Shown here: positions 1-46,839 of the stretch, piece by piece
Layout of the letters: the number at the start of each line of letters is the position of its first letter
Numbering within the stretch: position 1 is the stretch's first letter
Source of the DNA: Candidatus Omnitrophota bacterium
GTDB lineage: Bacteria; Omnitrophota; Gorgyraeia; Zapsychrales; Fredricksoniimonadaceae
DNA length: 64,000 nucleotides
Assembly (NCBI GenBank): GCA_044225175.1
Contig: JBGAJA010000002.1
Span: 280,991 to 344,990 of the forward strand
Direction: 5' to 3'
Translations under genes and position numbers: made by a program
The notes under the pieces: generated by a model
Told to the model about the DNA's origin: nothing
The model's input: only the letters and a program-made list of their open reading frames with translations
Database searches by the model: none

Positions 1-310
1 ACCCTGCTGATATCGATATTGTTGCTATCATCAATGATAATTATTCAGGAAAGAAACGATTGAAACTTAAAGGAGAAGAAATCTCCAAAAAGATATTTCA
101 TTCTCATTATGCCAGATTTACCGATTTTGTGGATGTGTCTTTCATGACGCAAAGACAGTTAATGGAGGATTGGGGCGTTAAAACAACACTTGCTAACTTT
201 GGAATTGTATTGAAGGCACAAGACCTTTGGGATGAACCTTTGACCCATGCACGCAAAAGCCATATCAACCGTTTGGAGAAGGCACAGGATCTATTATCTG
301 AGTCTCAAAG
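1..310 (+). other. Domain: C-terminal part of a minimal (Pol beta-like) nucleotidyltransferase fold, copy 1 (inside the giant CDS)
   Basis: The translation DIDIVAII...FTDFVDVSFMTQRQLMEDWGVKTTLANFGIVLKAQDLWDEPLTHARKSHINRL aligns at about 43 percent identity with copy 2 near nt 5150-5345. Confidence 0.5.
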
Positions 311-3300
311 AATACTTGATCTTAATAAACCCTACATTACTGAAGGAGAAGAGGCTTTAGGACGAGTATATAGTCGTTTTGACCAGGCCAACCTATTTCT
401 TTTGAAAGATTATCCACAGTTAGCCTTATCTGAAAACAAAATGAGGAAATTGGCTGTTGAAATCAGACATTATTTAGATAGATCCACTAGATTTGCTGAA
501 AAGCATGCAATGCTTCAATCTATCCAGAATGAATTAATAGAGAGCATCTATTTGGCAAGGCGGGAACTAGTACGAAGGGAATTGGCAAACTTGAATATCA
601 AGGCATTTCAACCTTCTGTAAATATCCGTGCTGGACCTAGAGCCAATCTAGTTCCTATTTCTATTCCTGCAGCAGTTATGCTGGCCTCTATTGGCCTTAA
701 CCCAGACCCTGCCTTAGCAAAGGCATTCATTATTCTAGCAATGATTTTCTTCTTGTTCCTTATTGGAAAGATAATCATCAGTTTTAAGAATTTTTCATGG
801 AGACTTCACCTACGACTGCCATGGACACGTGTTCGAACATTGACTCCCAAAGAGATGCTAGAGACCCTCGAAGACATTGCCATGTCTTATCAGAAGCAAT
901 GGAGCAGAGTTTCTAATCAAAAATTGTTCTTTCAAAGAAAGACAAGAGCATTAGCTAAATCCATTGTCAGAAATACCATCCGAGTAATTTCTCATACCCA
1001 AGCCCCTCAGAATAATTTAAAGTCGGCGATTGTCTTTATTCAGAGACAATTTGAACCTAAAGAAGCAGGACATAATAAAAGCCAAATAATGTATGAAACA
1101 TTACTATTGGCCTTTTGGAAGACAGTTTCTCAAAAGACTTCGATGAAAGACCAAGGAACAAATTTGATTGTCTGGTTGGATAAGTATATAAGCATGGGAC
1201 TGTTGTACTATGCCATTATTGTCCAGATGAAACTGCTTCCGATTGCGATTTTCTCCAGGTATGTGTTATCAAGATGGCGTATTTATATTGAATACAAGAA
1301 AGAAATGAATAGTCATTTTAGAGACGACCCAGAACTCCAAAAGTGGGTCGTTACTATGCAAACCATGATTCAAGAAGGCAAGAAGAATATAGACATAGTT
1401 AATGCTATTAAGAAAGCACCTTTTGCCCACATATCTATTGATCTTTACAAAGACTTGCTGACCTCTTCTTATATGAATTCAAGATCGTTCTATCTTTATA
1501 GTTATTTATACATCTTTGAGGAAATCCAAAGATCATCCTCGAGCGCCAACAGAGAATTTAATATGCGGCAGACCATTGGCATGGTTTTAGGAGATGAGGG
1601 ACTAGAGCTTTTTGACTACGTTACGAAAAGGATGGGTGTCCAAATTCTATTTATTGAGAGAAAAGACGAGGATTTAAATGATCCGAACTTTATTAATCTA
1701 AGAGAAAGAAAAGTTTATCTTAATCAAGGTTCTTCTTTTGTGATGAATGCATTTAGGTTTTTATCACTGGCACGTTTCTTTTTAAACCATAAGTCTTTGG
1801 GTCCTTATCATTTCTTAGTTGATGTTAAAGCGGATAAACTACCGCTGAAATTTCTCTGGAAGTTATTTAGAAATCGATTTAAAGATCCCACAATCAAGGA
1901 CTTATTTAACAAACTGACGGTCAAAGAACGTAGACATTACTTTTTTGTATTATGGCATGCCATGGGTATGGGAACGGCTGTTTCTTGGATCAAATGGGAC
2001 TACACCTATTTAGTTGTCAGAAAATTAAAATTATTAGAACAGACCTCAATATTCTTAAGTGAAATTCATCTTTCCAAACAAAGAATCCAAAATATTAATA
2101 GCGATTATTCGTTGAGTAGCCCTGCTCCACCTAAGCGTCTGGCCTCTAAAGCCATGATATTACCAGCCATCAGACTATTCATTCGACGCATTCATTATCT
2201 ACCCTATCTAGCATTCATCTCTGTTATTTATGTTCCAATTATTGCAGCCATTGATTGGAGCAGATTAAGATTTCTAGCGGATCCTTTTATATGGTTATTC
2301 AATAAGCTCATTGAACTAGCAGAATTCTTGAATCTAAAGGAGTTAGCTCGAATATTGAAAAAAATCGCCCATCAAATCAATGAGGCCCTTCAAGGTGTTT
2401 GGCATATGGTGGAGAATTGGGCAATGAACGTTTGGGAAGTAATAGGTCCATACATTATGAATGTCGCCCATGCTGCTGAAGGATTACTGCACTATTTGAT
2501 TTCCCCTGCAGCTTTCATGTTGGGTGCTGTAGTTATAATCCTCACATACTTCGTCACCAAGCTCATGTTTAAATTTATTCTAAGAAAATCCAGCGAGAGA
2601 ATCGTATGGGTAGGGGCAACAGTAAATATTCTAAAGAAGTTAAACAATGATCCTATTCTAAAAATCATCGGGATCGTTGCAAATAAAATTAGTGTCTGGG
2701 TTGGAGGGCTGTTTTTTATTGGGGGAGCGATTGCGATAACCACTGAGGCTCTTGCTTTCATAGGAAAACACCTTTTGTTAAGGTGGGATTATCTTCGCGG
2801 GTTTAAATATAAAATTTCACTAAGCGATGATTCGTACAAAGCATTTTTCAAAATGATTCATGAAATGTTTTCTCGTATCCAATCACATCTGCCTAAAGAT
2901 TTAAATGAAGACTACAGAAAATTAGTCGTAGAACAAATTCTTAAGAAAGAAGAAGAAATCAAGGAACTCATGACGCAGCTTATTACTTCTGGCATGCGAA
3001 GTATGGAAGAAAATATCACTTCTGCTGCGCCGGTAGCTTCATTAAGAAATGACCACTGGATCAATTTAATACTGGCACCGATGGATTTATTATCGAAGGA
3101 CATCAATGCGCGTTTAGAGACATGGCACTCTATGGGGATTCCTTTTACGCATGTTCATTTTTATTTTACATGCGGATCGTTCTTTGGCATGGCGCTTCTT
3201 ATTTTGATCTTTCTTCCCAGAGAATTCATTAAAATTTATGTCGAAGACATTAAAAGACTTTTCAGGTTTATCTTTACTAAACGAATCAACAGCTTATCCA

Positions 3301-6300
3301 GTGAGTTAAAGAAATTGAGAGGTTTACAAGACATTGACTTTACATTAGAAATTGCCGAGAAAAGATTAGGGCGCTTCACGTATGTTATTAAAGCTTACGG
3401 CCAAGAATTTAATACACGATTAGGGGTTTTTACAAGTGTGTCTAAACTATTTATAAGAACATTCTTTAATAAACCAAGGCCATACCTCTTGCCTGCACCG
3501 CATATAAGCAAGGCTTTTAGTCCAGGGGAAGATGCAAAGAATATAGAAGAAGGTTCTCCTAGTCAAAGTCGAGATGTTGATTCAAGAGATAAGATTCAGA
3601 CGACAACTGTTTTCATGGGTAGTCTGAGTGTTATGCGTGCAGGACCAGAAATACATTCCGTTGATAGCATTAATTGGACGTATGAATTGGCCCATCGCTA
3701 TGGTCCAGTTCTTTCACACGATTTAGTATTAATCCTTGGAGCTTTTGTCTTAATAGTAATGTTGTTTTTTAACAGAATTATTACAGAGTGGATCTTTAAG
3801 TTTATATCGAAAAGTAATGCAAGAATTCTTAATAAGGATAGCAATCCCTTGAAGATCAGAATGACCTCCATTGAAAACCACACCATAGTCATCCAATACT
3901 CCAGAAACAAATTCACAAATATCTATCGCAGCACAGACAATGATGTTTTGCTGATGGATTCCCAGAGACGATCAAAAGATATTTTTGTATATAAGGCTGC
4001 CCAGGCAATTTCAATTAAAGAAGATCAAAAGTTGAGACATGGAGACATAGAGATATTGGTTGAACCAGGCAGTATGGTTACGATTAAGAATTTCGGGAAA
4101 AAGCCAATTAAGATTATGACTGAGTCCGAACTCTCATTAGATGACCAGGACTATTTTAGAAGAGGTACAGCGGTAGTATTAGGTGGCGGTTATTTGTTGC
4201 TTGTATTTAATCGTATTTTGTTTGATTTTAACCTCATAGAAGTTGCTGGATTAACTCTGGCCCTCATCTTATTTCTAGTAAAAAGAACAGACGATGATAA
4301 ACCCACAAAGTTAAATTATTTAATTTATCGCATCCTTAATAGAACAGAAAACATCATTAATTACATTGATGATTTCTTTAGAAGGACAAACAAGAAGCGC
4401 TTCTTCCTTATTCCTCAATTTTTCAGGTCATGGAAACCATCTACTCAGTCTTTTAATGATGATCAAATTGATTTTGTGGTTTCTTATTTGCATGGTTTAG
4501 TCGCATCTCGTAAGATTTTCTCAGAGAATGATTTAATATGGACGTATCGACTAGCTAAGAGCTGCATTCAAGTTAGACAAATCGATCGTTTTGTTCAGGA
4601 ACATTTGGAAAAATGGGCTAGGGAGAGCCGGGATTTACGTGTTCTTTCGGCTATTATTACCGGATGGATCCAAGCTCCCCAAAGCAGAGGAGGCATTGAT
4701 AGATTAACGCAGATATTGATTAAAACCCACGGATTTTCTAAGAAAACAGTTACATCCTCTCTTTTAATGAAAATTGCCAAGCAAGGTGCGGACCAGGCGA
4801 GGTATGAATCGGTAGATGATGATGTCTCAGATGATAGGGTCCCTTCTTATAGAAAACAACTGAGGGACCGCTCGATCTACAAGCATCAACGTTTCGGTCT
4901 TCAAAAGAAAATTTTAAGACGCGTAGCATCTATCGATGTCACGCGACTAAAAGCATTCTTAGAAGAAGAGTTGTCCAACATCTCATCACAGAAAAATTCA
5001 ACTCAAGGGTGCGTTAAAACAATCATAGTCTTTGGAAGTTTTCTTTATGGAACTCGTCGAGAACCAACTGATTTGGATGTTTATGTCATTGTTGAAGGGG
5101 TTGAAGTTAAACAACTCGTTAAGAAGACAGTAAACATTCCTAGATATGTGTTCTCAGATGAATACTCACGATTAACACGATTTGCAGATTTGCATTTTAT
5201 GAATCGAGAAGAGTTAATAAGAGACATAGGTTTTCGAACATCAGCAGCGAATGTCGGAATTGTGTTAAGAGGAGAAGGATTAAGAGATGAGCCTTTGACC
5301 AATGCTAGATCCTCCGATTTTAATCGTCTTGTCCGTGCCTCAACGGCCATGAAACATGGCATGAAAATGATAGAAAGCACTGTCGAACATGATCGTCGTT
5401 ATCCTGATGCCATTCCTGTATGGAGGGCCAAAGCATGGAGACGTATTACGGAATCCCATTTATTTATCCAAGAGGTAGATTCTTCTGTGACAGCGCACGA
5501 GGATTTTATTGAGGAACTATTATATGGGATGGAGCGTTACAATGAAGATCCTCATAAGAACCATGATGATTTTCAGTGGCAGCTTAAGCGCACTCACGCC
5601 TTAGTAATAGCATCATTACATTATGCCCGCATGTCATTAGTTTGGCGTTATTTAAGAAGTGTTCGTCCTCCTCAAGTTCCGACAATAAGACATAAGAGGG
5701 CCTTTGGCATAACGGTTTTGCCTGTTGTGTTGTCTGGTTTATTTACCGCAGCATGCTCCATCATCTTTATTGTAAGACACCAGTTATCGATGGAATACGA
5801 GTCTCTAGTGAACATAGGAGCGCGCCTAGAAATTTTAATACCAATTCTCTTGCTGTCAGGGATCTTTGCAGTACCTTTCCGCAGAAATTCTAAGAAATCT
5901 GCTGTGATTAAAATTCAAGGCAAGCCAGAGGAAGAATATTTGTTAATGCTGAGGTTTTTCTTTGTCAATTTATTGTCTATCAATTTTCGGCTTATGCAAA
6001 TTACAACTCAGGAGAGCCCAGATCGAAGAAAGTTCAGACCCATTATTAAAGACTTAGTGAACATTAGCCGTAATTTTAAGGAACGGTTGAGCGCTACACA
6101 GAAAGCTTATGATCAAGAATCAATTCCTTATAAACGAAATTTACTTTCTTCCCGCATCGAGTGGATGACAATTATGAATACTAAACTGATCAGGGCTTGG
6201 GGTTTATTGACAGATAAAGCTAATGGCCCCGCGGTCAGCCAAATTCTTTTATTTCAAGCCGATTCTTTGTTTAAGAGATACACCCAAGCCCATTTAAAGA

Positions 6301-9300
6301 AAGTAGAAAGAGACCGCATTCGATTAAGAAGCAGGCACTTGGATTATCCTACAGGCAAAGGGCGTATTTGGACAAACGTGAAAGAGAATGTGGATAAGCT
6401 TACCCGATGGGCCCACACTTCAACTAAAATTTCTAAAGGAATGGAAATCACAAGCCCTCAAGTCATTGAAATTAGTTTTAAAAGCCGGTGGCAGATGAAT
6501 CGTTCCAATGGTCATGCGCTGAATTCTGTGATGGCAAATCAAAAGAAATTCCAATTGATTGTTGAGACGCTTCAAGAATTAGAAAAGCAATTAATCACCT
6601 ATAAAGAAAAAGGATCCATAGACCCTCCTTTATTAATGCAATTATTTGATCCGATCGTCAGATTACTAGATCAATTTATCGGTCGAGATACGAAGACAAT
6701 TATTGAAGAGCTTGAGTTAGCTGCATCAGCATGGCAAACCGCTGAAATGCTTCTTAAAAGCAAGAATTGGAAATGGGGAATGACAACGATCAGTTGGGCC
6801 AAAAGATTTTTCGAAGGACGATTAAAAGAATTGCAACAGCAAAGGATTTATTATGAACAGAACAAACTCCTTCCTACATTTGGCATGACATTTGAACGGA
6901 ATGCCTCTATTTTTCAGCGAGTCGTAGAAATCGAAACAGACGGAAAGTGGAATACAACTGTCATCACAAGACTCATCAAAGACCTAGAACCCAATCAAGA
7001 TCCAGATATTGTACTTATCTTAAATTCTTTGATGGACGCTCAAAAGCATTACGTACAAGGAAAACGAGTACGTGCAAGCAAATATCTGGCTGAGGCCAAG
7101 CTAAGGGTGGGAAATTCGAACCTGCTCTATGAATTCTTAATGATTTATAGAGACCATGTTAAAGGCTTTATTTTAGATGGATATCTTTTAAAAGATGCTC
7201 ACCACACGGGTTTTATTAAAGCTTTTGAACAATTTTTACTAGACCACCCTCAAGAAGTGAGATTCAAAGCAGTATGGACATACCGTTTCTTCCAGGCTGT
7301 TTTTGTCAGATTTAAAGTCGAAGCACCTAAGCAAAAAGGAAAAAGGGTCATAAAAATTCCTAATCCTTTATTTATTTGGTTCTCAAAATTAATTGAAACG
7401 ATTGAATCCAAAGGGTTCTTTCAATTACCTAAAGCTGAACGTGAAAAAATCCCCTATCAAATTGCGCAGGAATTAGAACTTGATCTGCCACCAACGAAGG
7501 TTGAAGAAACGATCAAAGCAGTGACGTCTTACATTCCAAACACCCAACATCTTCCAATAGCAGCTAATAGTGTGGACCAATGGCTGATCGATTTAGGATT
7601 ACAGGCCTTAAATTATTCACGCAATACACTCTTTAATAGACGAGGAACTCGTATTTTTATCAGAGCCCTTAATTTACATGTGCAGCAAATGCAGGATGTG
7701 ATTGAATGGATTGCAGAACAAAGCAAACTCAGAGGTAGAATCGTCTATGCTAAGCCCACCCCCAATAAAACTCCCGAAGGCGAAGAAATTTGGCACTTAA
7801 TTTCTTCTAAAACTTACGCCAGACTTGACCCAAAAGACAGAAAAGTTTACCACAAACTTGAAAATATTCCTGATCCTCATCTCAAATGGCTTGGTATTGA
7901 TCGCGAAGATCTGAGAAGAACATTTACTTTAGAGATAGCTAGGCAAGCGGTTGAGTTAGGTAAGGAAACAGGTAATCAAACCATGGTTGATATTTATCAA
8001 CCGTTCTTGGATTGGTTGCAGCAATCCTATAGACCAGATCCTAATGAGTCTTCTATCTCCATGCAGGAGCCATTTGCTTATATCGAAGGTAATGCCATAG
8101 TGATGGCATCTATTTATTCCAAACTTTCCCCGCATCTAGAAAGGCGAGTCCAAGAACATGAACGCCTTCATTTGAAACACCCCACGATCACTGATGAAAT
8201 GGTCATTTGTCAAAAACATGCTCAAGCTGTCCTCATGGATCAAATCAAAACAATCAGCACCTTCAAAGGCACAAGTTTTTCAAGCCGTGACTTTCAAAAT
8301 AAAATCAAGGCTATTTTAGCCTATGAAGGAAAATCTAAGGAAAAAGTCCAGAAATTCATAAGAGTGGCCATCAAAACCATGGCCCAGCTTGTCCAAGATA
8401 ATGATCAATTGCAAATATTTTATGGTTTATTAGGAGAAATTATAGGCGTATATCAGGTGCTTTTTAGCCAGAATACCGTGCTGGAAGGTCTTGATTTGGG
8501 AGACATTAAAGAAATCAATTTAGAATTGGCTATTAATGGCAAACCCCGAGAAATGGACTGCGTTACTTCTCGTGCCCTCATTGAAATCAAATTTCAACTG
8601 ACATGGTACAAATTGCTTGAACAAATCATTAATAACCGTAAGGATGGAGGGAGTTCATATTTAGCATCTTTGGAATGGGAATCACTTGGATTTGGACACA
8701 TTCGTAAAATTATCTATTTTGGATACAAAGATTATGGTTCTATGGCGCAAGGCCTTATTGAGTACTTAAAGAATCATCCTGCAGATCTAAGTCATTTGAA
8801 ATTCACAGAAGAAGGCTTCCGTTTTGAGATTTCTTTCCAAAAGTTGTTTGATTTTCTTTTTTCTAAAGAAATCCAAAAAGCAGTGCAAGAAGAGAACCGG
8901 CGACGATCTCTAGTGAGCTATTGGCAGGAAAGATCTCAAGCTGTATTTGAATTGATCCAACGCCTTGCCCATCGTTTGAGCGAAGAGCCTAAAACATTAG
9001 TCATTGCTGTCCATCAAGCAAGGAAAAAGGACTTAGCCATTTTAAGAAATCTAGGAAAAGGAGTTACGAGCCAAAGTGATTCTAAGGAAGAGTTCTTGAG
9101 CTATAGGACCTCCAAATACATGCAATTCTTTTACACTATTTGGCCTAAGACTTTAGGCCATCTTAAAGGAATTGGAATGATTCCAAGTGAACATGAAAGT
9201 CATGTGATTATCCGCAATGGTGACAATCAACCTAAATGGACAATTTCACTAGAAGACCTAAGGAGGGCTTTAGAAGACATATATTCCTTAGACACATCTT

Positions 9301-12300
9301 CAGAGTCCGTTTTATCTACCGAGGAAGTCATAGACCTCGTTTGGGTCAAATATTCAGAACCTACTGAAACTCTCGGGCTGGAAGCTCAGAGAACTTGGCT
9401 GTTAGAAAATAAGATCCAAAATCAAGAGTGGTCCCTGGAAGAGATTGATTATCGCCTAGAAAAACTCTTTGAGGCCATCCAAATGGATGAACTTTTTAAC
9501 CTGGAGATAGATCAACTCAATATTAAGAAATCTATTGAGCAGAATGGTTTTCTTAACCTTCCTGAAGACAAGTTAATTGCACTAGCTTCAAAAATCAAAG
9601 AATACCATGCCCACTTGCAGGAGTTCTTTGATCTTCTTTATCAAGCCTGTGAGCGATTCAATCAAATGGCTCAGAAAGAACGTGAACGTCACAATAGATT
9701 GGGCATTTATGATCGTCAGAGAATATTATTGCAAGTGCTTTTAACATGGAACCCCACAGACCGATATTTAAGGAGAAAACTGGCTTTTATCAGTAATTTA
9801 CTCGGTCAGCAGGATCAAGCCGAAGCAATCCTCTTGGGCGTAAGACCGCGGGCTGAAGATGATGTGATTGAGGCTGCTAATGTGAAATTAGACATGGCCA
9901 GGCATTTGTATGGACAATTGAAAATAGACTTAATGTACCGCCGTTCTGCTCTAGGCGAGATATTAGAAGAAATATTATCTAAGTCCCGTCAAGGCAGAGA
10001 CATCTTAAGAACTTTTATTTTATCGCACAAAAAGGGCTCACCTATCCATAAGTTGTCAATGGTCTACTCCAAATTAGCTTCATTCCATGAATTAATTGGA
10101 ACAATTTACAACCGGCTTTCAATGACAGCCTATTTACGCAAATCTCAAGAGTATAATTTAATGGCTTTTCAATCCATGGTTCATGCCGTGTCATTAACTG
10201 TTCAGGCCCTTAAAATGGATTCTAATAACTGGCATGCCATTCGTAAGCTACCCATGATTCTTTCGCTTACTCAGCGAACGATTCAGAATCTCAAGATCAC
10301 CATTCAAAACTCTGAAAATATCTATAAATCATTGGAAGAATTAAAAAAAGCCTTAGGAGATTTAAATATACCTTCATTTCAATCACACAAAGCAAGGATT
10401 GATGAAATTATTCAGGAAAAGCTTGAGATATGTTTGTTTTATGAAAACCTGAGCGGACGTTTTGTTGCAGTGACAATAGAAATGCTCAAAAAGGATCTCT
10501 ATACCACTCAGGAAGATTTAATAAAAGCGATCTTAGCTAACAGTGAATTAGGGAAAGAAGATGAGATTCGCAGATTAGAGGAAGTCTTCAGACATAGAAT
10601 GCGAGAACTCGATCTTATTGCTTTAGACATGGCCATTATTTATTTCTATTTTGAACTTGAGGAAGAGCTGCGTGATTTAGAGAAGCTTCCTGCTTATCTA
10701 CAAATGGTCACAGGCCTTGAGAAAATTCAGATCCGAGATATTAAAGACAGGGTAGTTAATAAAAAAGATTTTTATGCTTTGTTAGGGATAGAAGTGACTG
10801 AGAAAACAACTACGGAGGAGGAACCTCAAAACATTCTTTATAATAAAACTAATATCCGACATTTCTTGATCCAAGATCCCTTAAGATTGGAACAGCTATA
10901 TGAACGTTTACAACAACTTCGAGGATGGATGAAATATAAAGAATTTCAGTCCTTGTATGATCTTTATCAACAGGTCAAAGATAAAGTGACAGACTTCTTG
11001 AACCAGGGGAATGATGTCATTGAGTCATCTAAGAAAGAGGTGACTCCTCAATTAGCCAAGTTAAGAAATTTACGTGTAGGTCCACAAGGATATGTAACAC
11101 AGCGTCAGCAATTAGAGCAAAAAATTGAGAATGTTGTCAGAAAAGTTAAAGAGCAATTAAGTCAGGGAAAAGACCAATTAATGCAGTATTTTAAAATTAT
11201 CCAAGAAGTAGAGGCTATTTATAAGTCTAAATGGATTAAGGAAGTTAAAGCCAGGATCGAATCAGCCATTAAGGAAATGGAATTACTGCAACACAGCCAG
11301 AATAAGAACTATTTGTCCAGATGGCGTTACCAAGAGCTTTTAAATCAAAGAACCCATTACGATGTTATCTTGGCACCTTTATTTGAGCATAGAGGTCTTC
11401 TTAAAGAAATCCACCAGATCATACAAGAAGTTGAAGGAATGCTGGCTCAGAAAGATATTCTCAATGGCCATATGTCAACATGGGCATTAATGTGGCAAGC
11501 GATCAAAGAATCTTATGAGGATGTCGCTTTTGAAGATCAAGCTTTTGTACAAATCTCTATGAGTAAATTTGAAATGATGATCTTTGCTAAGAAATTAAGA
11601 AAAACAGTAAAGACCAACCAGGATTTCGATACTCTTAGGAAGAGGCATGGGGAGTTGGAGAAAACTTACATGCTACATAACGGCATTTATTTAAATCCAT
11701 CCACAGAATACTCTTTCAAGGAAAAAGAGATCAAAGATCTTTTGAGTCAATGGCAACAGAAGTATGAAGAGTGGATGGCCTTGCCATTTGATTCGAAGAA
11801 TTTCATCCCCTATGCATTGAGAGTAAAGGTTATTTATAAAGAACTGCTTGAGTCGATCAAGGACATTCAAGAAAAGATCAGGATTTTAGTCAATGAAAAG
11901 AACTCAGTACTGCTTGTCCAAATAGAAGATCTTGAGAAGTTTGTCAATGAGTTCTTTGTATGGATCGAAGGGGAAATCCTACCTACATATAAAGGTCATA
12001 CAAGATCTAAGACGAATTTACATCAATTTATGAAAATATTTAGAAATTACATTCATTCTTTAAAAGGGATATTAGCCACTGATGTCGACGATAAGAATTA
12101 TCTGCGATTAGTCGCGCAGGGTACAGAGAAACTGAACTGTTTAGCATCTTTAGCGGTATCTTTACAAGTTATTTATAACGAGGAACTTGGTTGTATAAAA
12201 AATACTCTGTTAAAATATGTTCCCCGCTTTGAGACACGTTCCAATGAATACGATCTCGCAGAATCTTTTTCTGCAAGTATATTCGGTGTTAAACAAAACC

Positions 12301-15300
12301 ATCCAAGCTCTCTTACATACAGAATAAGTCAAGCTCAATCAGAATTAAGAAAATGGTTAAATTATAAAGATGGTCCTATGCCTTACTGGGAGTGGTCTAA
12401 TGTAAATTTTATAACTTTAAATGTATACCTTTTTTTATGGTCCAATAATAATTCTTTGCCAATCCCACCTTTATATGAGGTAGTTCAAAAAGCATACAAA
12501 GATATTGTATCTAGAAGGTTAGAAGTATTCCAAAAGAACCCTAATCCTCTAAGAAAACCTATGACTACGATTAGTATTCTTAAGGGGTGGAGGACCATAC
12601 AAGGCGTTCTCAATCGGGTCTTAACTAATCACATAGAAGGATGGTCTTTCTTGCTAATAAAGAGAAAATTTGGCGACGTATTTAATAAAGCCCAATCGAT
12701 CAAGGAGAATAATGCAAAGAAATTATCTGTTCATATTTGGCCTTTGATGTTGATTGGGATGGGATTAACCATAGGGCAGCAGTACGGTATCTATGGAATC
12801 CGTGCAGGGGCTCAGTCGCAATATGTTCTTGGTTCGCAACAGATTTTATTTTCTGTGCTGGGCGTATTAAGTGGCATTTTGGCTTTGCTAGTAGTTGGCC
12901 TTATCCTCATATTCCTTTCGGATATCTGGAGAGCTTTTAAAGATCCCAATTCAAAAATTTATAGGATTTTAGATGTTGTTTTAACTGTCCTCATGATCCC
13001 TTTATGGATTCCTGTGAGCTTCTTAATGGGATTATATGTATTTGTTCTTTTGAAACACCATGGTTCATCTCAATCGGTCCTTTTTAAACAAGAAAGAATC
13101 GGACATCAAGATCAACCATTTATGATCTACAAATTCTGCTCCATAATTAATACTTCCAACGGAAAAGAGATTGTTCTCAAGCATTTACGTAAATCTGGTT
13201 TAGATGAAATTCCTCAAGTCATCAATATTTTCAAACGACAAATGTCATTATGGGGGCCGCGGCCTGTTCGACAGGAAGACATTGATAATGGCCGTTATCC
13301 AGACTATTCATTAGAAATACGAAGAAGATTACCAGGATACCTAAGCCTTTTCGTTCTTGACCGAGGCGCCGGTGATGGACATTCTCCCAAGGACCAGAAA
13401 ACGATTGAAGCACAAGGCAAGCGATTCCAAGAATTGTCACAGCGGGAATATGAGCATTGGAGCCCTATCCTTGCAATTAGTCTTATACTTGAATTTGGAT
13501 TTTATCTTTTGAAATTTATAGTAAGACTATTTGGTTTTGGAAATAAACTCAGAGGGCCGCCTTCTTTAATTATAAATGATGTAAAAATCCTGCCTACGCT
13601 GACCCCAGAAGATACTCTCGAGCTTCCTCCTCCATCAGATTTAAAAGACAAAGGTTTTCTTACAAAGTCGATATTCATTAAAGATCAGATCCAACAAGGC
13701 CAATTGAGTACGATTGTTCTTCCAGATTTCCCATATAACTCTCCAATATTAATCCGTATATTTGAATGGCTCGATGGGGATGAATCCATCCGAGAATTGA
13801 TGGACATAGTCTACGGGTATATCCCGTCTTTAAAATTGTTTAACCATGTGTCTTTGATCACGCTTTTAGATGAAGTCAGAACATGGAAACCAAAGAACCT
13901 GATTGCAACTATTGGTGCACAAACTAATACACGAGAAGAGATTCAACGACGATTATTCGATGCTATTAATCATGGCGCAACAGGTGTTTTGGTGGTCTCT
14001 GGCGGAGGAGCATGGCGACGAATATTCACGGGTATTGTCTCTATATTAAATATCCTCTCACCGCTTCTTATCACAGTATTTATCGCAAGGATCATTCAGC
14101 GTAAATATCTTTCTATGGATTCAATGAAAATCCTGGAACTTATCAGTGAAATGAAACAACGAGGACAGATCGCTCAAACAATTACTGTATGGGCTGTAGC
14201 TAATCCTTATCGAGATTCTATTAAAAGGATTGAACATAAGATTGAGTGTGGGGCACAGAGAATATTGATCCAACCGCCAATTCTTTGGGAATTATTTACA
14301 TCGTGGTGGAGAGAAGCCCAGACAAGCAAGCTTAAAGAAAAAATCATTGTAGGCATTCCTTATATTGCATCATTGAAGTCGTTGGAATTTTGGTTTTTCT
14401 TAATGAATATTAAGACTTCAAACTGGCCATTCTTTAGAAATCGATTGACCCAAGATGCTTATAATTTGCAACAGCAATTTATTCAGGTCCAGAAGTTAGG
14501 GAAAAAAGCTGAAGAAACATTCATTGAACAATGGAATGCCGATTTCAAATCTCGAGTGCATCATTTGTCAGGATTTATAGGGGGCCATCACATGCCTGTT
14601 ATGGCATGGGGACGGGTGGGCCGCAAAGAAATCAATGAGATGAGAGATAAGCTGCAGACCCTATTAGGAACAGTGATTGAATGGGGAGGGAATTCTTATA
14701 GCGTAGATGCCAACATGGTTGTGTTACATCGAGTCTTAAGTGTTTTACTTCGGATGATTGATGAAAAGAAGATCGATCTTAAAGGTACCTCTGCGTTGAT
14801 CGAGAGGATCTTTTTTATTCATACCATTGCCCCCAATAGTTCTCAGCTTATGATTGATCCAAGGCCTCTGTATAGAAATAAGAAGTTTATTGGACGCTTT
14901 GATATTCTTTTTGATTTAAGGCAGCTGGGCAAATTATCTGTATCGGCACTCGAGAAAAACATAGTCATGGTATTAAATATCAACTCTCAAGAAGTTCCCT
15001 CGAAGGCCCTTATGCTTTCGGATCCAGCCCCCATTAGCCAAAGCAGAATCCTCTGGCAATTTAACTACGCCTTTTGGAGAAATCTAAAAGGTCATTTGGA
15101 TGCCACAGGTCAAGACTTCGATGCATCCATTGCAGGCTCTCCGGATTCTAACGATCAATATGTCGAATATTTAGCCAAAAGATTTTTAATCAAGCTCATT
15201 GCTGCCATTAAACAGGAGCCTTCCCAAAGATATTTCTTTCTTGAGATAGGAAGCGCAGGGGCGAAATTCGTTCAACTGTTCTTAACTAAGCTCATGGCAT

Positions 15301-21300: not shown

Positions 21301-24300
21301 CATGGGATCAAAGAAGGTTAGAAGAGATTAAAACCCTTTTAGCTCGGGCCGATATTAATAATAGAACATATCATATACTTCCACCCATGACCGTAGGTCC
21401 TTTAAAAGCTGTGCTTAGTGCGGCAGATGCAGTTATAACTGTTCAAACCGGAGTTGCGCATTTAGCTGAGGCCCTTGGCAAACCTGTTATTGTTTGGACA
21501 GATAGTCCCAATGGAGTAGGGTTTTTGCATGAGGAAACAGCGCTTTTAAGATTAGTTTTAGACGTAGACAGAAATGAAAAACAACCATTTCGATTTAAAA
21601 GCATTGAAGAAATAGTTGAAGAAACCTTAAGGAAATGTTTAGAGCTTACAGATAGTCCTCCTTCATCAGTTAAGATTTTAAAATCTTTAGCATGGCCTTC
21701 AATGTTGTTTGCAGGAGCTTCAGGTTTTACTGCCGTAGTTCTTAAAGCGGAAGGAATAAACTTCTTATTCAATGCAGGCTTTGCGATGATGTCATCTTTA
21801 TTGGGCTTCATGAGTCCTATCCGCGCTGGACCTGTATCTAACTCCAATCCATTTACTAATCCTTATTGCCAATTACTTTTAGTGAGTCTATTTTTGATTG
21901 CAGTATTAAGGGCTGGCATTCCTTGTCAAAATCTAATCAAATTCCTTCTTAGTGCATTTTTCCGTAAAAGAATCACAGGCCTTTCATGGATAAAGATTGG
22001 CCAGTTTAAAAAGGCTATTCATTTAGGCAAAGCTGTTGAATATTTGAAAGAACAGGCGTTGTATGAAGAAGTGAAGCGAACAACCAAGAAAGGTCAAAGG
22101 ACCTCAGCACGATGGTTTGCTTTAAAAGCCTTTCCATTTGCTATTTTTAATAAAGATGGTGAACCGCAGCTAAAACTCATGGGCTTATCAGATTATGTGA
22201 AATTATACAATTTGGCCTGGAGCATGGATTATGTATATCGTTTACGAGGTTTGGTGGAAACGGTTGATGCCCGAATACGATATGATTTAGGAGAATATGG
22301 CTTTACAGACAGAGTTTTAGACAGGGAGGATTATACTTGTAAGTCGATAACTTTGCAGCCTCTTCAGGATGGCACACAAGATTATGAAGAGCAAATCATC
22401 CGACTAAGATGTTTCATTTCATCTATTCAAGACTTTGTAAGATCAAAGATTCAAAATTTCGACCATATAACTAACATGGATCATATTTTGATGCAATTAG
22501 GTCAGAATATAATTCAGCATAGCCGAATTGGCATACTGAATGTCTCTGCTGCCTTTGTTGATGGACAGATCACAATGGACATTACGCAATGTGATGTAGG
22601 GCGTGGGATTGATTTAAAAGAGGAATCACAACTTAGATCACAGAATATCCATCAACTAGCTTCAGATATTTTCAATCGATACTTTAATACAAGAATCACA
22701 TTATTCTCGCAAGGACAAAAGTTTAAGATAACGGGGATAGATGCATTGGGAAATTTAGAAGGCCCAATAGAATCTTTCTCTGAGGCTAAAAAGGGAATGA
22801 AAGCTGAAATATCATTTGTGGTATTAAAAGGGGGACGAAGACAAGCACGAGCTCATCCTACAGCCCCTATCATTCATAGACCTCCTTCAGGCCGAAGGCC
22901 AGTCAGGTCTCAAACAGCACTCTCCAACGTAACTGGGCTTATAATCATTGGTATTCTAGGATTAACCGCAACTTATGCCCGTGCTGGGCCAGTCAATGTA
23001 CCAAAATTATCACACCAGTTCCCCTTAAATCTAGCCGTTGGACCAAATGTCTGGCCAATAGTTATTGGGTTGATCTTCGTCGTTATTTTTGCAGTTTTAA
23101 TAATCGTATTTTTGAATCGTCGTAAGGAAATAAAGCATTTATCTGGTCTTCAAGAAAAACTTAGTCCAGGACGAGTTGATAGGGGCTGGGCATATATGAA
23201 TCTTGAAGTACAAACATTCATTCAAGAGACGATGGCTAAAGCGTCAGTTCAAATGGGAAAACCAAAGATTTTGATTATTGGGGTCGGAGGAGGCAGGATC
23301 TTGTATGACATGATGTATCTTTTTCCTGGAGCGGAGTTTTCTTTTATTAATAAACACCCTATTCGTATTTCAAAGGAGGAATTTGGGGAGCCATTTAAAG
23401 GAGCAACAAGTATTAGAGAATTCTTAAAGTATTTTGCGAGGAATGAAACAGTTCATGACGTAGATCAAGGACTTCCATATTCTAGCAATTCTTTTGATTT
23501 GGTTTTAGTGGCCCAGCATACGTCAATGTATTTTAAAGACAAATTAAAAGTCCTTTCAGAGATAAAAAGAGTACTAAAAAAAGATGCTGTAGGAATGGTT
23601 TGGGGATGGCTGAATTCCTCTAAATTTAAAGATGAACAAGGCAGTGATCTTTTAGAGAAAGATGTCATCGAGAGCTTTAATAGCCAAGGCGACCGATATT
23701 ATATTTTAAGCTATTTTTATTTTATCATGGTTAATCTAAGACCAAAAAATAGTTTTCCAGCTTTAGAACTTATTGCCCAAGGTCGTTACCAAGAATGGCC
23801 CGGCATGGCTTTCAGATATTATGACACCTATCAAACTAACAGTAAGCCGCAGCCAAGTCAGACGATAGCCATCGATGAGAAAGGTGTTGTTTTAGTCCAT
23901 GTTCTAGGAAGTCTTCCTAAAGAAGGGACGCTTTATCCTAATAGTTATTTTGACCCGTTATTTTATGCAAGAAAAACTCCTCTGCCTTTTCTTTTTAGAT
24001 GCCCTAGAGAGATTGTAGAATTCTCCTGGAACGATGCTCTTAAATTCTTTCACTCTGATGATTCAATGGCGGTCCTGATTCCTTTAAGTGCTTACAAAGG
24101 CAAAGATCTTATTAATTTATGGTATACCGCCACATCTCATTTTGGTCCTTTTGAAATCCCTGCTGGGTCGAGCTTGGTTCTACCCATGAAACACAAGGGG
24201 AATCCAAACTTAGAAGCGATTAGAGAAAAAGGCATTAAGATCGTGTTTTTTGAGGAGAGTATGACATTTACTCGACAAACATCTCTCGACCTGCATGTTC

Positions 24301-28462: not shown

Positions 28463-28831
28463 ATGTCAGAATTACGTCAAATCCCCCGATGGCAAATTGG
28501 TGAGAGAGCAAAGGTAACACTTAAAGAGCATGAGTGGGAGGGTAAGTGTTTGCTTGAAGACTTGAATCTTAAAGGATTCAAGATATCTTCGAAAGAAAAA
28601 CTGCCTGCAGACACAGTCTTTGAGATTAATCTAGATCTTAAAAGTTATTTAATTCTTGATGCTATTGTGAAGGTCTGTTGGAAGATGGAGCGTGAAGGTC
28701 GTTATCATTATGGGATGGAGTTTCTTAGAATCAAGGACCAGGACAAGCAGGATATTAGTCAGTATTTATTTAAGAATCATGCAGAACAAGTCAAAAATAT
28801 CTGGTGGTCTAGAGATGGGATTAAGGAATGA
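28463..28831 (+). CDS. PilZ-domain-like small protein, a putative c-di-GMP receptor
   Basis: An ATG at 28463 follows AGGA at 28451-54. The translation has RQIPR (RxxxR), then about 25 aa later DLNLKG (D/N-x-S/N-x-x-G), and a C-terminal YGMEFLRI block, matching PilZ layout. The ORF-track start at 28418 overlaps the giant gene's last codons. Confidence 0.45.
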   Translation: MSELRQIPRWQIGERAKVTLKEHEWEGKCLLEDLNLKGFKISSKEKLPADTVFEINLDLKSYLILDAIVKVCWKMEREGRYHYGMEFLRIKDQDKQDISQYLFKNHAEQVKNIWWSRDGIKE

Positions 28832-43186: not shown

Positions 43187-43234
43187 ATTTACCTCAAGTG
43201 TACCATATGGTTTCTTAGAAGGCAAAAATCAAAG

Positions 43235-43318
43235 TGCTGGGAGAGGGAATCGAACCCTCACAGCCGTGAAGCTACTGGTTTTTGAGACCAGCGCGTATAC
43301 CAGTTCCGCCATCCCAGC
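43235..43318 (-). tRNA. tRNA-Leu (anticodon CAA)
   Basis: The sequence was folded by hand. The acceptor stem is GCTGGGA/TCCCAGC. The anticodon stem is CTGGT/ACCAG with loop CTCAAAA. A long variable arm is present. The T-arm is GAGGG-TTCGATT-CCCTC. The discriminator is A. Confidence 0.85.
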
Positions 43319-46838: not shown

Positions 46839-46839
46839 A

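What the first reader, a model, noticed from the sequence alone, without database searches (positions are those of the whole stretch)
12735..23640. Giant protein contains a complete glycoconjugate-synthesis toolkit in one chain: initiating phosphoglycosyl transferase, GT9 glycosyltransferase and SAM methyltransferase
A Bac_transf-type PGT core lies at 12735-13385. It has KFRxM-like, DE(I/L)PQ(V/L)xN(I/V) and GPRP blocks, with TM helices before it. A GT9 heptosyltransferase-like domain lies at 20870-21520. A class I SAM methyltransferase lies at 23200-23640. These are normally separate enzymes of LPS, capsule or S-layer glycan pathways. Fusion into one polytopic megaprotein suggests a self-contained assembly line for a lipid-linked, possibly methylated, glycan. 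Alternatively it could glycosylate the protein's own repeat domains.
Basis: partly seen in the sequence, partly recalled or inferred. Interest (0 to 1): 0.85.

Follow-up and report, generated by a model that had tools for sequence, protein, structure and literature searches.

The report
Giant membrane multi-enzyme protein with junction cassettes
One unbroken 28-kb gene encodes a membrane protein of at least 9,456 residues that strings together a sugar-phosphate transferase, a glycosyltransferase-like domain lacking its usual catalytic residues, a methyltransferase-like domain and two membrane proteases, separated by a repeated junction motif that may mark cutting sites.

Summary
A single ORF (open from the window's left edge to nt 28430, at least 9,456 aa, about 40 hydrophobic segments) contains three Pfam-significant domains. 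They are Bac_transf (78 bits), Glyco_transf_9 (60 bits) and a class I methyltransferase (28 bits). It also contains an intact CPBP protease, an M50 site-2 protease and a nucleotidyltransferase motif.

The "self-contained glycan assembly line" reading is only partly supported.
- The PGT keeps its Asp-Glu dyad, re-entrant-helix proline and GPRP.
- The GT9-like domain folds like WaaC, but it has Asn, Gln and Gln where WaaC has Asp13, Lys192 and Asp261.
- The nearest relatives of the GT9-like and methyltransferase-like modules sit singly inside other giant mosaic proteins. Two of these are NCBI-named Candidatus Omnitrophota. None has a PGT signature or both modules.
- No internal repeats large enough to serve as glycosylation targets were found.

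New here: six copies of a cassette place each enzyme in a separate module. The cassette is a hydrophobic stretch, then [I/M/A]-R-A-G-[P/A], then a TM helix and a basic cluster. Related giants carry their own recurrent delimiters around homologous modules.

Best reading: a PVC/Omnitrophota-type mosaic giant protein, possibly processed as a membrane polyprotein.

The parts
3..28430 (+). Giant ORF, at least 9,456 codons (first in-frame start codon at nt 60; the frame is open to the window edge, so the N-terminus is probably missing). About 40 hydrophobic segments; one 2,300-aa TM-free stretch at aa 1938-4230.
4971..5108 (+). Pol-beta-type nucleotidyltransferase motif (FGS...DLDVYV). The Pfam hit is weak but the signature is intact.
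627..638 (+). Junction cassette 1: NI-RAGP, followed by TM helices at aa 195-240 and a basic cluster.
3636..3647 (+). Junction cassette 2: VFMGSLSVM-RAGP, followed by the TM helix at aa 1223-1241 ending FFNRIIRR.
12801..12812 (+). Junction cassette 3: LMLIGMGLTIG..YGI-RAGA, followed by the TM helix at aa 4266-4284. It opens the PGT module.
12957..13529 (+). Monotopic phosphoglycosyl transferase core (Bac_transf). Features: re-entrant helix at aa 4306-4324 with P4318; Asp-Glu dyad D4382-E4383 (nt 13203-13208); GPRP at aa 4399-4402. Departures from the family: KFRSM is KFCSI, the DPRVT loop is deleted, and PGITGxxQV is degenerate.
19581..19592 (+). Junction cassette 4: MMSSLLGFMSPI-RAGP, followed by the TM helix at aa 6524-6542. 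It opens the 7-TM plus GT9-like module.
19629..20285 (+). Block of seven hydrophobic helices with no family match. By the positive-inside rule it starts outside and ends inside the cell.
20586..21647 (+). GT9-like GT-B domain. Substitutions at WaaC-equivalent positions: N6869 (nt 20664) for the catalytic Asp, Q7050 (nt 21207) for Lys192, Q7129 (nt 21444) for Asp261.
21822..21833 (+). Junction cassette 5: MMSSLLGFMSPI-RAGP. It shares the same 16-aa peptide with cassette 4; 46 of 48 nt are identical and both differences are synonymous. It is followed by the TM helix at aa 7269-7287.
22980..22991 (+). Junction cassette 6: GLIIIGILGLTATYA-RAGP, followed by the TM helix at aa 7667-7685 ending FLNRRK. 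The TM-plus-basic tail gives a marginal match to the LPXTG_anchor model (16.6 bits, cut-off 15.9). It opens the methyltransferase/protease module.
23142..23849 (+). Class I methyltransferase-like module. It has the GxGxG motif (G7741-G7745), Asn7764 in a clade-conserved 'F(I/V)N(K/R)' where an acidic residue is usual, and an LPYxxxSFDLV motif. Its relatives (up to 46% identical) are almost all inside other giant proteins.
25041..25508 (+). CPBP (Rce1-like) glutamic intramembrane protease. All three motifs are intact: EEvvfR at 8370, FalvH ending at 8405, HvinD at 8443. NCBIfam similarity to MroQ, MrtJ and MrtS, all below their cut-offs.
25740..26294 (+). M50 site-2-protease-like domain with HELGH (8607) and P-x-x-x-DG (about 8715-8720) intact.
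28463..28831 (+). PilZ-domain gene (about 122 aa from its first Met), 33 nt after the giant ORF's stop, on the same strand. No terminator-like site lies between it and the convergent mutL. Its association with the giant gene is not established.

Best explanation
This is a mosaic giant membrane protein of the kind described for Omnitrophota and other PVC bacteria. It is one translated chain of at least 9,456 residues, made of semi-autonomous enzyme modules anchored in the inner membrane.

Shown:
- The chain contains a monotopic PGT with an intact catalytic dyad.
- It contains a GT-B/GT9-fold domain that lacks the canonical catalytic Asp and two donor-binding residues.
- It contains a methyltransferase-like module from a clade found almost only in giant proteins.
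- It contains a nucleotidyltransferase motif and, near the C-terminus, an intact CPBP protease followed by an intact M50 protease.
- Six copies of a conserved cassette divide the chain so that each enzyme sits in its own module. The cassette is a short hydrophobic stretch, then [I/M/A]-R-A-G-[P/A], then 10-30 residues, an N-out/C-in TM helix and a basic cluster.

Inferred:
- The enzyme domains face the cytoplasm.
- The PGT can load a sugar phosphate onto a polyprenyl phosphate.
- The GT9-like domain is not a heptosyltransferase. It either binds a nucleotide sugar without transferring it or uses different chemistry.
- The three glyco-related domains are co-resident modules rather than a demonstrated three-step pathway.

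Speculative (about 0.3-0.35): the cassettes are processing sites, which would make the chain a membrane polyprotein.
- The arrangement fits signal peptidase I (cut IRA|GP): a small or aliphatic residue at -3, Ala at -1, Pro or Gly at -4/-5 and a short h-region-like stretch upstream.
- Cleavage could be by signal peptidase I or by the chain's own CPBP protease.
- The M50 protease could then cut the remaining type-II helix, as site-2 proteases do.
For: Domains and motifs.

GT9 fold: AlphaFold2 with a 10-sequence alignment gave pLDDT 74.9 and pTM 0.78. The top Foldseek PDB hits are WaaC (2GT1/2H1H), a GT9 protein (3TOV) and WaaF (1PSW), at E about 4e-12 and TM 0.6-0.66.

Substituted residues. Gln at the Asp261 position is shared with the two closest relatives, P0019 and P0020, so it is a clade feature rather than random decay.

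Mosaic-giant kinship:
- An exhaustive HMMER search of 1.84 billion proteins found 63 hits. The best GT9-like relatives are in proteins of 4,656 and 5,632 aa, and most of the methyltransferase-like relatives are in proteins of 1,400-4,900 aa.
- Two of these are named Candidatus Omnitrophota by NCBI.
- Similarity is confined to single modules, with no collinearity.
- Two other large ORFs in this window share an N-terminal domain of about 380 aa (65% and 48% identity) with the same protein family.
- The literature describes giant ORFs over 20 kb with many TM helices, few annotated domains and poor conservation (PMC10066038). It also describes glycosyl transferases, methyltransferases and peptidases as typical content (10.1101/2023.11.21.568195).

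Cassette:
- RAGP is the most over-represented 4-mer in the chain: 5 observed against 0.054 expected, P 4e-9. The motif [IMA]RAG[PA] occurs 6 times against about 0.02 expected from residue frequencies (my arithmetic).
- All six are followed within 30 residues by a top-scoring hydrophobic helix that has more Lys/Arg after it than before it.
- Two cassettes share a 16-aa peptide whose DNA differs only at two synonymous sites.

Delimiters in relatives: SELR occurs 11 times against 0.2 expected, SSP[ILM] 15 against 0.13, SE[VL]R 11 against 0.27, and DGG 22 against 2. They bracket the homologous modules.
Against: - There is no orthologue of the whole chain, so neither the domain order nor the cassettes could be tested for conservation.
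- The closest genome by MutS (57% identity) has a giant ORF at the syntenic position, but its C-terminal 2,717 aa are unrelated, lack strong hydrophobic segments and carry kinase domains.
- That closest genome is labelled Planctomycetales, not Omnitrophota, so the phylum is unsettled.
- Topology rests on a Kyte-Doolittle scan and the positive-inside rule only. The helix count between the PGT and cassette 4 does not give a clean parity.
- Cassette 1 has no clear hydrophobic stretch upstream.
- The cassette could be just a reused membrane-anchor hairpin that is never cleaved.
- The PGT departs from near-invariant family columns (Arg to Cys in KFRSM, the DPRVT loop missing, PGITGxxQV degenerate), so it could be inactive.
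- No enzyme activity was tested.
Confidence: 0.55

Rival explanations
1. One reading: a self-contained assembly line. The PGT loads the first sugar phosphate onto a polyprenyl phosphate, the GT9-like domain adds the next sugar, and the methyltransferase modifies the glycan. All three act from one chain at the cytoplasmic face. The 7-TM block may handle the lipid-linked intermediate.
For: - All three domains are real and lie in pathway order from N to C.
- Each follows an N-out/C-in helix or the 7-TM block, consistent with a cytoplasmic location.
- The PGT catalytic dyad is intact.
- The methyltransferase-like module keeps GxGxG and the LPFxxxSFD motif.
- A PilZ gene follows the giant gene. PilZ proteins commonly regulate exopolysaccharide synthases (own knowledge).
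- Fusions of monoPGTs to other functional domains are a known class, the Bi-PGTs (PMC10312794).
Against: - The GT9-like domain lacks the Asp that is described as strictly conserved in heptosyltransferase homologues, and also lacks Lys192 and Asp261.
- No relative combines any two of the three modules, and none has PGT motifs.
- The methyltransferase-like clade occurs in many giants with kinases, phosphatases, response regulators and other domains. It therefore shows no specific tie to glycans.
- The domains are 600-2,500 residues apart and are separated by junction cassettes.
Confidence: 0.2
2. Domain graveyard or scaffold. The giant ORF has accreted captured genes whose enzyme functions are decaying. 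The recognisable domains are structural relics in a large membrane-anchored scaffold or surface coat. In that case there is neither a pathway nor processing.
For: - The GT9-like domain has lost three functional residues.
- The PGT has lost several near-invariant columns.
- About 85% of the chain matches no family.
- Giant ORFs of this kind are reported as poorly conserved (PMC10066038).
- The syntenic giant ORF in the nearest genome is unrelated in sequence.
- Foldseek also matched chains of chloroplast NDH-PSI supercomplexes with a GT9-like fold. From my own memory, unchecked, these are non-enzymatic subunits.
Against: - The catalytic signatures of the PGT dyad, CPBP, M50 and nucleotidyltransferase are all intact.
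- Gln at the Asp261 position and the FINK motif of the methyltransferase-like module are conserved across distant giants, which indicates selection.
- The only two differences between the duplicated junction DNA segments are synonymous.
- 28 kb without a stop in AT-rich DNA implies continuing selection on the reading frame.
Confidence: 0.15
3. Self-glycosylation. The GT9-like domain acts like the autotransporter heptosyltransferases (TibC/Aah type) and glycosylates repeat domains of its own chain.
For: GT9 includes protein heptosyltransferases (own knowledge), and the GT9 fold is confirmed.
Against: - No internal repeats that could serve as acceptors were found.
- The catalytic Asp is absent.
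- The domain is predicted to be cytoplasmic.
Confidence: 0.03
4. Artefact. The giant ORF arises from assembly or frame errors, or from a mis-assigned genetic code, that fused separate genes.
For: None specific. Giant ORFs do invite this suspicion.
Against: - There are no stops of any kind in 9,456 codons under the standard bacterial code.
- All domains lie in one frame.
- The neighbouring genes are ordinary, intact housekeeping genes read with the same code.
- Comparable giant ORFs occur in complete genomes (10.64898/2026.06.07.730766).
Confidence: 0.02

Closest known systems
Giant ORFs of Omnitrophota and other PVC bacteria ('Archaeovorin'-type / 'multi-enzyme' giant proteins). Sources: West-Roberts et al. 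2023, bioRxiv 10.1101/2023.11.21.568195; Seymour et al. 2023, PMC10066038; bioRxiv 10.64898/2026.06.07.730766.
   Same: - An ORF over 20 kb with many TM helices, mostly unannotated and poorly conserved.
- Scattered glycosyl transferase, methyltransferase and peptidase domains.
- Module-level homology to proteins that NCBI names Candidatus Omnitrophota.
- Those authors also proposed post-translational cleavage.
   Different: - The domains reported there are GT1/GT5, NUDIX, SecA_DEAD, and C39 and S8 peptidases, among others. Here the set is monoPGT, GT9-like, CPBP and M50. No SecA_DEAD, NUDIX, glycosyl hydrolase, C39 or S8 domain was detected in the 9,456 aa available.
- In the two preprints, full-text searches found no mention of PF02397, PF01075, PF02517 or PF02163 (2026 preprint), or of CAAX, sugar transferase, heptosyl or M50 (2023 preprint).
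- The 2023 preprint states that cleavage points are unknown. Here a recurrent cassette offers candidates.
- The nearest genome by MutS is labelled Planctomycetales.
Monotopic phosphoglycosyl transferases (PglC/WbaP superfamily, PF02397), especially the bifunctional 'Bi-PGT' class
   Same: - A re-entrant helix with the conserved Pro, the Asp-Glu dyad and GPRP.
- 24-31% identity over the aligned core to ordinary PGTs, and up to 37% over the best local BLASTP segments.
- Fusion of the PGT core to other functional domains is a recognised class (PMC10312794).
   Different: - The core is embedded in the middle of a chain of more than 9,000 aa, not in a two-domain enzyme.
- KFRSM is KFCSI, the DPRVT loop is absent, and the PGITGxxQV and C-terminal helix motifs are degenerate.
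- It reaches only domain-level scores against the typed NCBIfam PGT families, for example 75.7 bits against a cut-off of 295.
GT9 heptosyltransferases WaaC/WaaF (PF01075; PDB 2GT1, 2H1H, 1PSW)
   Same: The two-Rossmann GT-B fold is the best structural match. The conserved x-T-G-x-x-H-L-A donor-site loop is present with Thr, Gly and His retained.
   Different: - Asn replaces the catalytic base Asp13, Gln replaces Lys192 and Gln replaces Asp261 (roles).
- Only the C-terminal half matches the Pfam and NCBIfam profiles.
- It belongs to a rare 'QTG' clade, found at only three metagenome loci.
Membrane polyproteins cut by signal peptidase at internal signal sequences (flavivirus polyprotein), and two-step intramembrane proteolysis (PrsW or DegS followed by RasP/RseP). 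Own knowledge, not tested here.
   Same: The layout is alternating cytoplasmic modules and TM segments, with a short hydrophobic stretch followed by a site that has a small residue at -1 and an aliphatic one at -3. The same chain also carries a CPBP-type and an M50 protease.
   Different: There is no experimental evidence of cleavage. I know of no described bacterial precedent for a self-contained system of this kind. The motif R-A-G-P is not a catalogued sorting or cleavage signal; only one marginal match, of the TM tail to LPXTG_anchor, was found.

Membership tests
Monotopic PGT (Bac_transf, PF02397) | Profile match above the curated cut-off | tested here: met
   78.2 bits against a cut-off of 27, E 7.5e-22, profile positions 2-170 of 179
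Monotopic PGT (Bac_transf, PF02397) | Asp-Glu catalytic dyad | tested here: met
   D4382-E4383 in LDEIPQ. The column is invariant in 16 sequences and aligns to WbaP LDELPQ.
Monotopic PGT (Bac_transf, PF02397) | Re-entrant membrane helix with a conserved helix-breaking Pro | tested here: met
   Hydrophobic segment at aa 4306-4324. P4318 aligns with the conserved Pro of the homologues. The geometry was not modelled.
Monotopic PGT (Bac_transf, PF02397) | Other near-invariant columns (KFRSM Arg and Met, DPRVT loop, PGITGxxQV) | tested here: not met
   C4360 and I4362; the loop is deleted; LPGYLSLFVL replaces PGITGxxQV
Monotopic PGT (Bac_transf, PF02397) | Transfer of a sugar-1-phosphate to a polyprenyl phosphate | not testable with these tools
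   Needs an enzyme assay
GT9 heptosyltransferase (PF01075) | Profile match above the curated cut-off | tested here: met
   60.3 bits against a cut-off of 22, but only profile positions 102-206 of 247. All NCBIfam heptosyltransferase models score below their cut-offs.
GT9 heptosyltransferase (PF01075) | GT-B fold closest to WaaC/WaaF | tested here: met
   Model pLDDT 74.9; the top Foldseek hits are 2GT1, 3TOV, 2H1H and 1PSW
GT9 heptosyltransferase (PF01075) | Catalytic base Asp (WaaC Asp13, 'GD' after strand 1) | tested here: not met
   The giant has LGN (N6869), where the canonical members in the same alignment have LGD. The Asp is described as strictly conserved.
GT9 heptosyltransferase (PF01075) | Donor-binding Lys192 and Asp261 | tested here: not met
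   Q7050 and Q7129
Class I SAM methyltransferase | Profile match and GxGxG motif I | tested here: met
   Methyltransf_11 at 27.6 bits against a cut-off of 21.2, C-terminal half only. IGVGGG lies at aa 7740-7745.
Class I SAM methyltransferase | Acidic residue at the end of strand 2 that binds the ribose | tested here: not met
   Asn7764 in 'FINK', which is conserved as N throughout the clade. That this position is usually acidic is my own knowledge. Asn could still hydrogen-bond to the ribose.
CPBP / Rce1-like intramembrane protease (PF02517) | Profile match plus the EExxxR, FxxxH and HxxxN/D motifs | tested here: met
   74.5 bits against a cut-off of 22.4. Motifs: EEVVFR at 8370, FALVH ending at 8405, HVIND at 8443. 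The motif definitions come from my own knowledge.
Site-2 protease (Peptidase_M50, PF02163) | Profile match plus HExxH and the downstream Asp of the xDG motif | tested here: met
   41 bits against a cut-off of 27.2. HELGH at 8607 and PSISDG at about 8715.
Omnitrophota 'Archaeovorin'-type giant protein | Giant ORF with numerous TM helices | tested here: met
   At least 28.4 kb and about 40 hydrophobic segments. The authors' own threshold of over 30,000 aa cannot be assessed because the ORF is cut by the window edge.
Omnitrophota 'Archaeovorin'-type giant protein | [quoted passage not shown] | tested here: inconclusive
   Glycosyl transferase, methyltransferase and peptidase domains are present, but from other families. 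No glycosyl hydrolase, NUDIX or SecA_DEAD domain was found in the 9,456 aa available.
Omnitrophota 'Archaeovorin'-type giant protein | Host organism in phylum Omnitrophota | tested here: inconclusive
   Module relatives are named Candidatus Omnitrophota. The nearest MutS (57% identity) is from a MAG labelled Planctomycetales. The window contains no rRNA gene.

The most novel reading that the evidence does not exclude
The chain is a bacterial membrane polyprotein. The six R-A-G-P cassettes are processing sites, and the chain encodes its own processing machinery (CPBP then M50), perhaps with help from signal peptidase I. Cleavage would release or separately anchor the PGT, GT9-like, methyltransferase-like and other modules.

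More generally, giant ORFs of Omnitrophota/PVC bacteria would be operon-equivalents translated as one chain. Lineage-specific delimiter motifs (SELR, SSPI, SSAV, SEVR, DGG, RAGP and others) would mark where they are cut. This would answer the question, left open by the giant-gene papers, of whether and where these proteins are cleaved.
Probability: 0.3. Interest if true: 0.85.

Novelty: new variant of a known kind. Interest (0 to 1): 0.6.

Why it matters
Giant ORFs in Omnitrophota and related bacteria are a recognised puzzle. Published work says their functions are obscure. It also says that whether they act as one chain or are cut into pieces is unknown, because no cleavage points have been identified.

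This example adds three things:
- A first-step glycoconjugate enzyme (monoPGT) and two intramembrane proteases as content of a giant protein.
- A precise, statistically strong junction cassette that divides the chain into enzyme-sized modules.
- The observation that homologous modules in unrelated giants are bracketed by each protein's own recurrent short motif.

Together these make the polyprotein question directly testable by N-terminomics or by re-searching existing metaproteomes for peptides that begin or end at the delimiters.

The case is also a caution. Three glycan-pathway domains in one chain do not by themselves make a pathway, because the GT9-like domain lacks its catalytic residues.

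Tried and rejected
1. Finding the source or orthologues failed.
- An exact look-up of the window's AccA found nothing.
- The word-indexed protein search with aa 4101-9099 found nothing at E<=1e-5. That threshold was strict for a database of 5.8e9 sequences, and a long query lowers scores.
- The same search with the GT9 region found nothing even at E<=10.
- Peptide-pattern scans of the genome and metagenome collections with the giant found nothing.
- An alignment-based metagenome scan returned only the contigs of P0019 and P0020 and one 2-kb fragment.

2. The syntenic giant ORF next to mutL in the nearest genome (L001) shows no detectable similarity by BLASTP or by phmmer --max, and it carries different domains. 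It is therefore no use for comparison.

3. Single-sequence AlphaFold2 of the GT9 region was unusable (pLDDT 38). It was replaced by the alignment-based model.

4. Sequence searches of the whole chain against the PDB found only PGT and WaaC matches. The remaining 85% of the chain stays dark.

5. I tested whether the stand-alone GT9-like gene P0026 sits next to a methyltransferase of the giant's type. A methyltransferase gene is adjacent, but it is unrelated (E 0.49). This link is rejected.

6. The six cassettes were scanned against NCBIfam sorting-signal models. The only result was one marginal match of the TM tail to LPXTG_anchor, so the cassette is not a known sorting signal.

7. The idea of RHS/YD repeats, prompted by 'IEYDAKGN', turned out to be a single local duplication of about 100 aa, not a repeat array.

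8. A eukaryote-style 2A 'skipping' reading of ...AG|P was considered and set aside. It is not known to work on bacterial ribosomes (own knowledge).

Full report
**What is there.** The window holds one ORF from nt 60 to 28430 on the + strand, 9,456 codons long. The frame contains no stop back to base 3 of the window, so the gene very probably starts beyond the left edge. At 37-40% G+C an open frame of this length cannot arise by chance. A Kyte-Doolittle scan finds about 40 hydrophobic segments. Many form closely spaced pairs or clusters, and there is one TM-free stretch of 2,300 residues (aa 1938-4230). BLASTP of the protein against itself at E<=1e-3 finds no internal repeats. The only duplication is a local one of about 100 aa near aa 5520-5700.

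**Checking the observation.**
- Bac_transf: aa 4302-4476, nt 12963-13487, E 7.5e-22, 78 bits against a cut-off of 27.
- Glyco_transf_9: aa 7026-7144, nt 21135-21491, E 2.4e-16, 60 bits against a cut-off of 22.
- Methyltransf_11: nt about 23274-23588, E 4.5e-6, 27.6 bits against a cut-off of 21.2.

NCBIfam agrees at domain level only. The matches to PGT families and to heptosyltransferases I-III are all far below the family cut-offs.
- a Rce1-like/CPBP intramembrane protease (E 8e-21);
- a Peptidase_M50 site-2 protease (E 1.7e-10);
- a weak NTP_transf_2 match.

About 85% of the chain matches nothing in Pfam or NCBIfam, or by sequence in the PDB.

**Catalytic residues of the PGT.** Alignment to WbaP and PglC structures and to 15 ordinary PGTs found in the 5.8-billion-protein collection gives a mixed picture.
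- Retained: the Asp-Glu dyad (D4382-E4383 in LDEIPQ), the proline of the re-entrant helix (P4318), the invariant Arg/Lys/Arg columns and GPRP.
- Lost: the Arg and Met of KFRSM (here KFCSI), the DPRVT loop, and a PGITGxxQV motif that is now degenerate.

The PGT is therefore a divergent but plausibly active member.

**Catalytic residues of the other domains.**
- The CPBP domain has all three signature motifs: EEVVFR, FALVH and HVIND.
- The M50 domain has HELGH and a downstream P-x-x-x-DG.
- The nucleotidyltransferase has GS...DLD.
- The methyltransferase-like module has GxGxG and the LPYxxxSFDLV motif. It has Asn in a conserved 'FINK' where class I methyltransferases usually have an acidic residue.

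**The GT9-like domain.**
- Single-sequence AlphaFold2 failed (pLDDT 38). With a 10-sequence alignment of relatives, the model reached pLDDT 74.9 and pTM 0.78.
- Its best PDB matches are WaaC, a Veillonella GT9 protein and WaaF, at E about 4e-12 and TM 0.6-0.66. The full two-Rossmann GT9 fold is therefore real.
- In HMMER and MAFFT alignments the canonical 'LGD' after strand 1 is 'LGN' (N6869). In WaaC this position is Asp13, the catalytic base, described as strictly conserved.
- The Lys192 position is Gln (Q7050). The 'DTG' Asp261 is Gln (Q7129), although the neighbouring Thr, Gly and His are kept.
- The two nearest relatives share the Gln in 'QTG'. Other relatives have Asn or Glu at that position, and several also lack the N-terminal Asp.

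This is a distinct, rare clade, found at only three metagenome loci. It is not a heptosyltransferase in the accepted sense.

**Relatives.**
- No orthologue of the chain exists in any collection searched.
- An exhaustive HMMER search of 1.84 billion representative proteins with aa 6840-7899 gave 63 hits.
- The best GT9-like matches lie inside proteins of 4,656 and 5,632 aa. Most of the methyltransferase-like matches (up to 46% identity) lie inside proteins of 1,400-4,900 aa.
- Two of these proteins are named Candidatus Omnitrophota by NCBI.
- Similarity is limited to one module per protein. None carries both modules, and none has PGT signature motifs.
- Their other domains include PP2C phosphatase, guanylate kinase and LOG-type lysine decarboxylase by Pfam. 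NCBI names one of them a response regulator.

This is the mosaic 'multi-enzyme' giant protein described for Omnitrophota.

**Genomic and taxonomic context.**
- Two more large ORFs in this window, 55564-60237 and 60234 to beyond 64000, share an N-terminal domain of about 380 aa with the same family, at 65% and 48% identity.
- The remaining neighbours are ordinary chromosomal genes: mutL, mutS, comM/yifB, accA, rlmN, a biotin operon, mnmA and pgi.
- The nearest genome by MutS (57% identity, all others 44% or lower) is a MAG labelled Planctomycetales. It also has a giant ORF convergent on mutL, but that ORF is unrelated in sequence and domain content.
- The phylum is therefore unsettled within the PVC group.

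**A new feature: junction cassettes.**
- The tetrapeptide RAGP is the most over-represented 4-mer in the chain: 5 observed against 0.054 expected, P 4e-9.
- With one RAGA variant there are six sites, at aa 190, 1193, 4248, 6508, 7255 and 7641.
- They share a wider pattern: a short hydrophobic stretch, then [I/M/A]-R-A-G-[P/A], then 10-30 residues, a strong TM helix and a basic cluster, often F-x-N-R.
- In all six, more Lys/Arg follow the helix than precede it, which predicts an N-out/C-in orientation.
- Two cassettes contain the identical 16-mer MMSSLLGFMSPIRAGP. Their DNA matches at 46 of 48 positions, both differences are synonymous, and the flanking DNA is unrelated.
- The cassettes place the enzymes in separate modules: the nucleotidyltransferase; the PGT; the 7-TM block with the GT9-like domain; and the methyltransferase-like module with the two proteases.
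- Under this topology the PGT, GT9-like and methyltransferase-like domains all face the cytoplasm. This is inference from a simple scale, and the helix parity between the PGT and cassette 4 is not clean.

**Delimiters in other giants.** Each related giant protein has its own recurrent short motif, and these motifs bracket the modules homologous to the ones here. Observed against shuffled-expected counts are:
- SELR: 11 against 0.2
- SSP[ILM]: 15 against 0.13
- SSA[VIA]: 9-10 against 0.2
- SE[VL]R: 11 against 0.27
- DGG: 22 against 2

The 2023 giant-gene preprint proposes cleavage by C39 and S8 peptidase domains but states that cleavage points are unknown. Neither 'cleav' nor 'polyprotein' occurs in the 2026 catalogue paper. 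No paper in the library holds both 'polyprotein' and 'Omnitrophota'.

**How it most likely works.**
- *Shown:* a mosaic chain with an intact PGT dyad, a GT9 fold without the canonical catalytic residues, two intact intramembrane proteases and six conserved junction cassettes.
- *Inferred:* the chain is inserted into the inner membrane with its enzyme modules in the cytoplasm. The PGT can start a lipid-linked glycan. The GT9-like module binds a nucleotide sugar or has different chemistry.
- *Speculative (about 0.3):* the cassettes are cut. The -3/-1 residues (I/M/A and A), the Pro or Gly at -4/-5 and the short h-region-like stretch fit signal peptidase I (IRA|GP). Alternatively the chain's own CPBP protease makes the cut. 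The M50 protease would then cleave the leftover type-II helix, as site-2 proteases do.

It is weakened by the GT9 substitutions and by the complete lack of co-occurrence of the modules in relatives. Self-glycosylation of repeats is unsupported.

**Verdict.** The object is a new variant of a known kind, the PVC/Omnitrophota giant mosaic protein. Its domain set is unreported, and its junction cassette makes the open 'one chain or many?' question testable.

Noticed in passing
window 28463-28831 (+): A PilZ-domain gene (Pfam E 8.5e-12) starts 33 nt after the giant ORF's stop, on the same strand. No terminator-like site lies before the convergent mutL. PilZ proteins bind c-di-GMP and often control polysaccharide synthases (own knowledge). 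A link to the PGT-bearing giant was not tested.
   Followed up: partly
window 55564-60237 (+) and 60234 to beyond 64000 (+): Two more large ORFs (1,557 aa and at least 1,255 aa; the second runs off the window) are joined by an ATGA start/stop overlap. Neither has a Pfam hit. Both share an N-terminal domain of about 380 aa (65% and 48% identity) with P0021, P0019 and P0043, and the first also shares a C-terminal domain of about 90 aa. These are the same metagenomic large proteins that carry the methyltransferase-like or GT9-like modules.
   Followed up: partly
proteins P0020, P0022, P0025, P0030, P0038, P0040, P0036, P0019, P0029 (hits): Each giant protein has its own short motif recurring 7-22 times against 0.1-2 expected: SELR, SSPI/L, ASSAV, RSEVR, DGG, SEDPAM and GLEE. 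Spacing is a few hundred residues, and the motifs bracket the homologous GT9-like or methyltransferase-like modules. They are possible lineage-specific linkers or cleavage sites. DGG would suit C39 double-glycine peptidases (own knowledge).
   Followed up: partly
L001 14384-22516 (-), contig CAZAXH010000018.1: The genome with the closest MutS (57% identity, labelled Planctomycetales, 51% G+C) also has a giant ORF convergent on mutL, at least 2,717 aa and cut by the contig end. Its sequence is unrelated to the window's giant. It has no strong hydrophobic segments and carries Pkinase and adenylate-kinase-like domains and a threefold internal repeat (LERRYWPETIYGGA). The position is conserved but the content is not.
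   Followed up: partly
window about 16617-17159 (aa 5520-5700 of the giant): A local tandem duplication of about 100 aa (..KDAxGNxI..Q.INGSSIEYDAKGxLVxFRxNMS..FKxIP..). It is the only internal repeat seen in the chain. The family is unknown.
   Followed up: no
window 19629-20285 (aa 6524-6742): A block of seven hydrophobic helices lies directly upstream of the GT9-like domain. It matches no family. Whether it is a transporter-, flippase- or ligase-like domain is unknown.
   Followed up: no
window 33981-37079 (+): A 1,032-aa ORF with only weak coiled-coil-type Pfam matches (TMF_TATA_bd, MscS_porin). It lies in a stretch with unusually high AT skew (0.18-0.23), between mutS and comM/yifB.
   Followed up: no
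window 44731-50765 (+): A contiguous biotin gene set (birA-like, bioF-like, an alpha/beta hydrolase, a bioC-like methyltransferase, bioD, bioA), followed by mnmA, a MORN-repeat protein, pgi and a fused ABC-ATPase/ABC-2 permease (53785-55407). ABC-2 permeases often export polysaccharides (own knowledge). No link to the giant gene was tested.
   Followed up: no
window 43234-43402 (-): Two adjacent tRNA genes, tRNA-Leu(CAA) and tRNA-Ala(GGC).
   Followed up: yes
L081 6795-9251 (contig CAZUHB010000020.1): The stand-alone 416-aa member of the divergent GT9-like clade (P0026) lies divergently next to a 253-aa methyltransferase gene. That methyltransferase is not related to the giant's methyltransferase-like module (BLASTP E 0.49).
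   Followed up: yes
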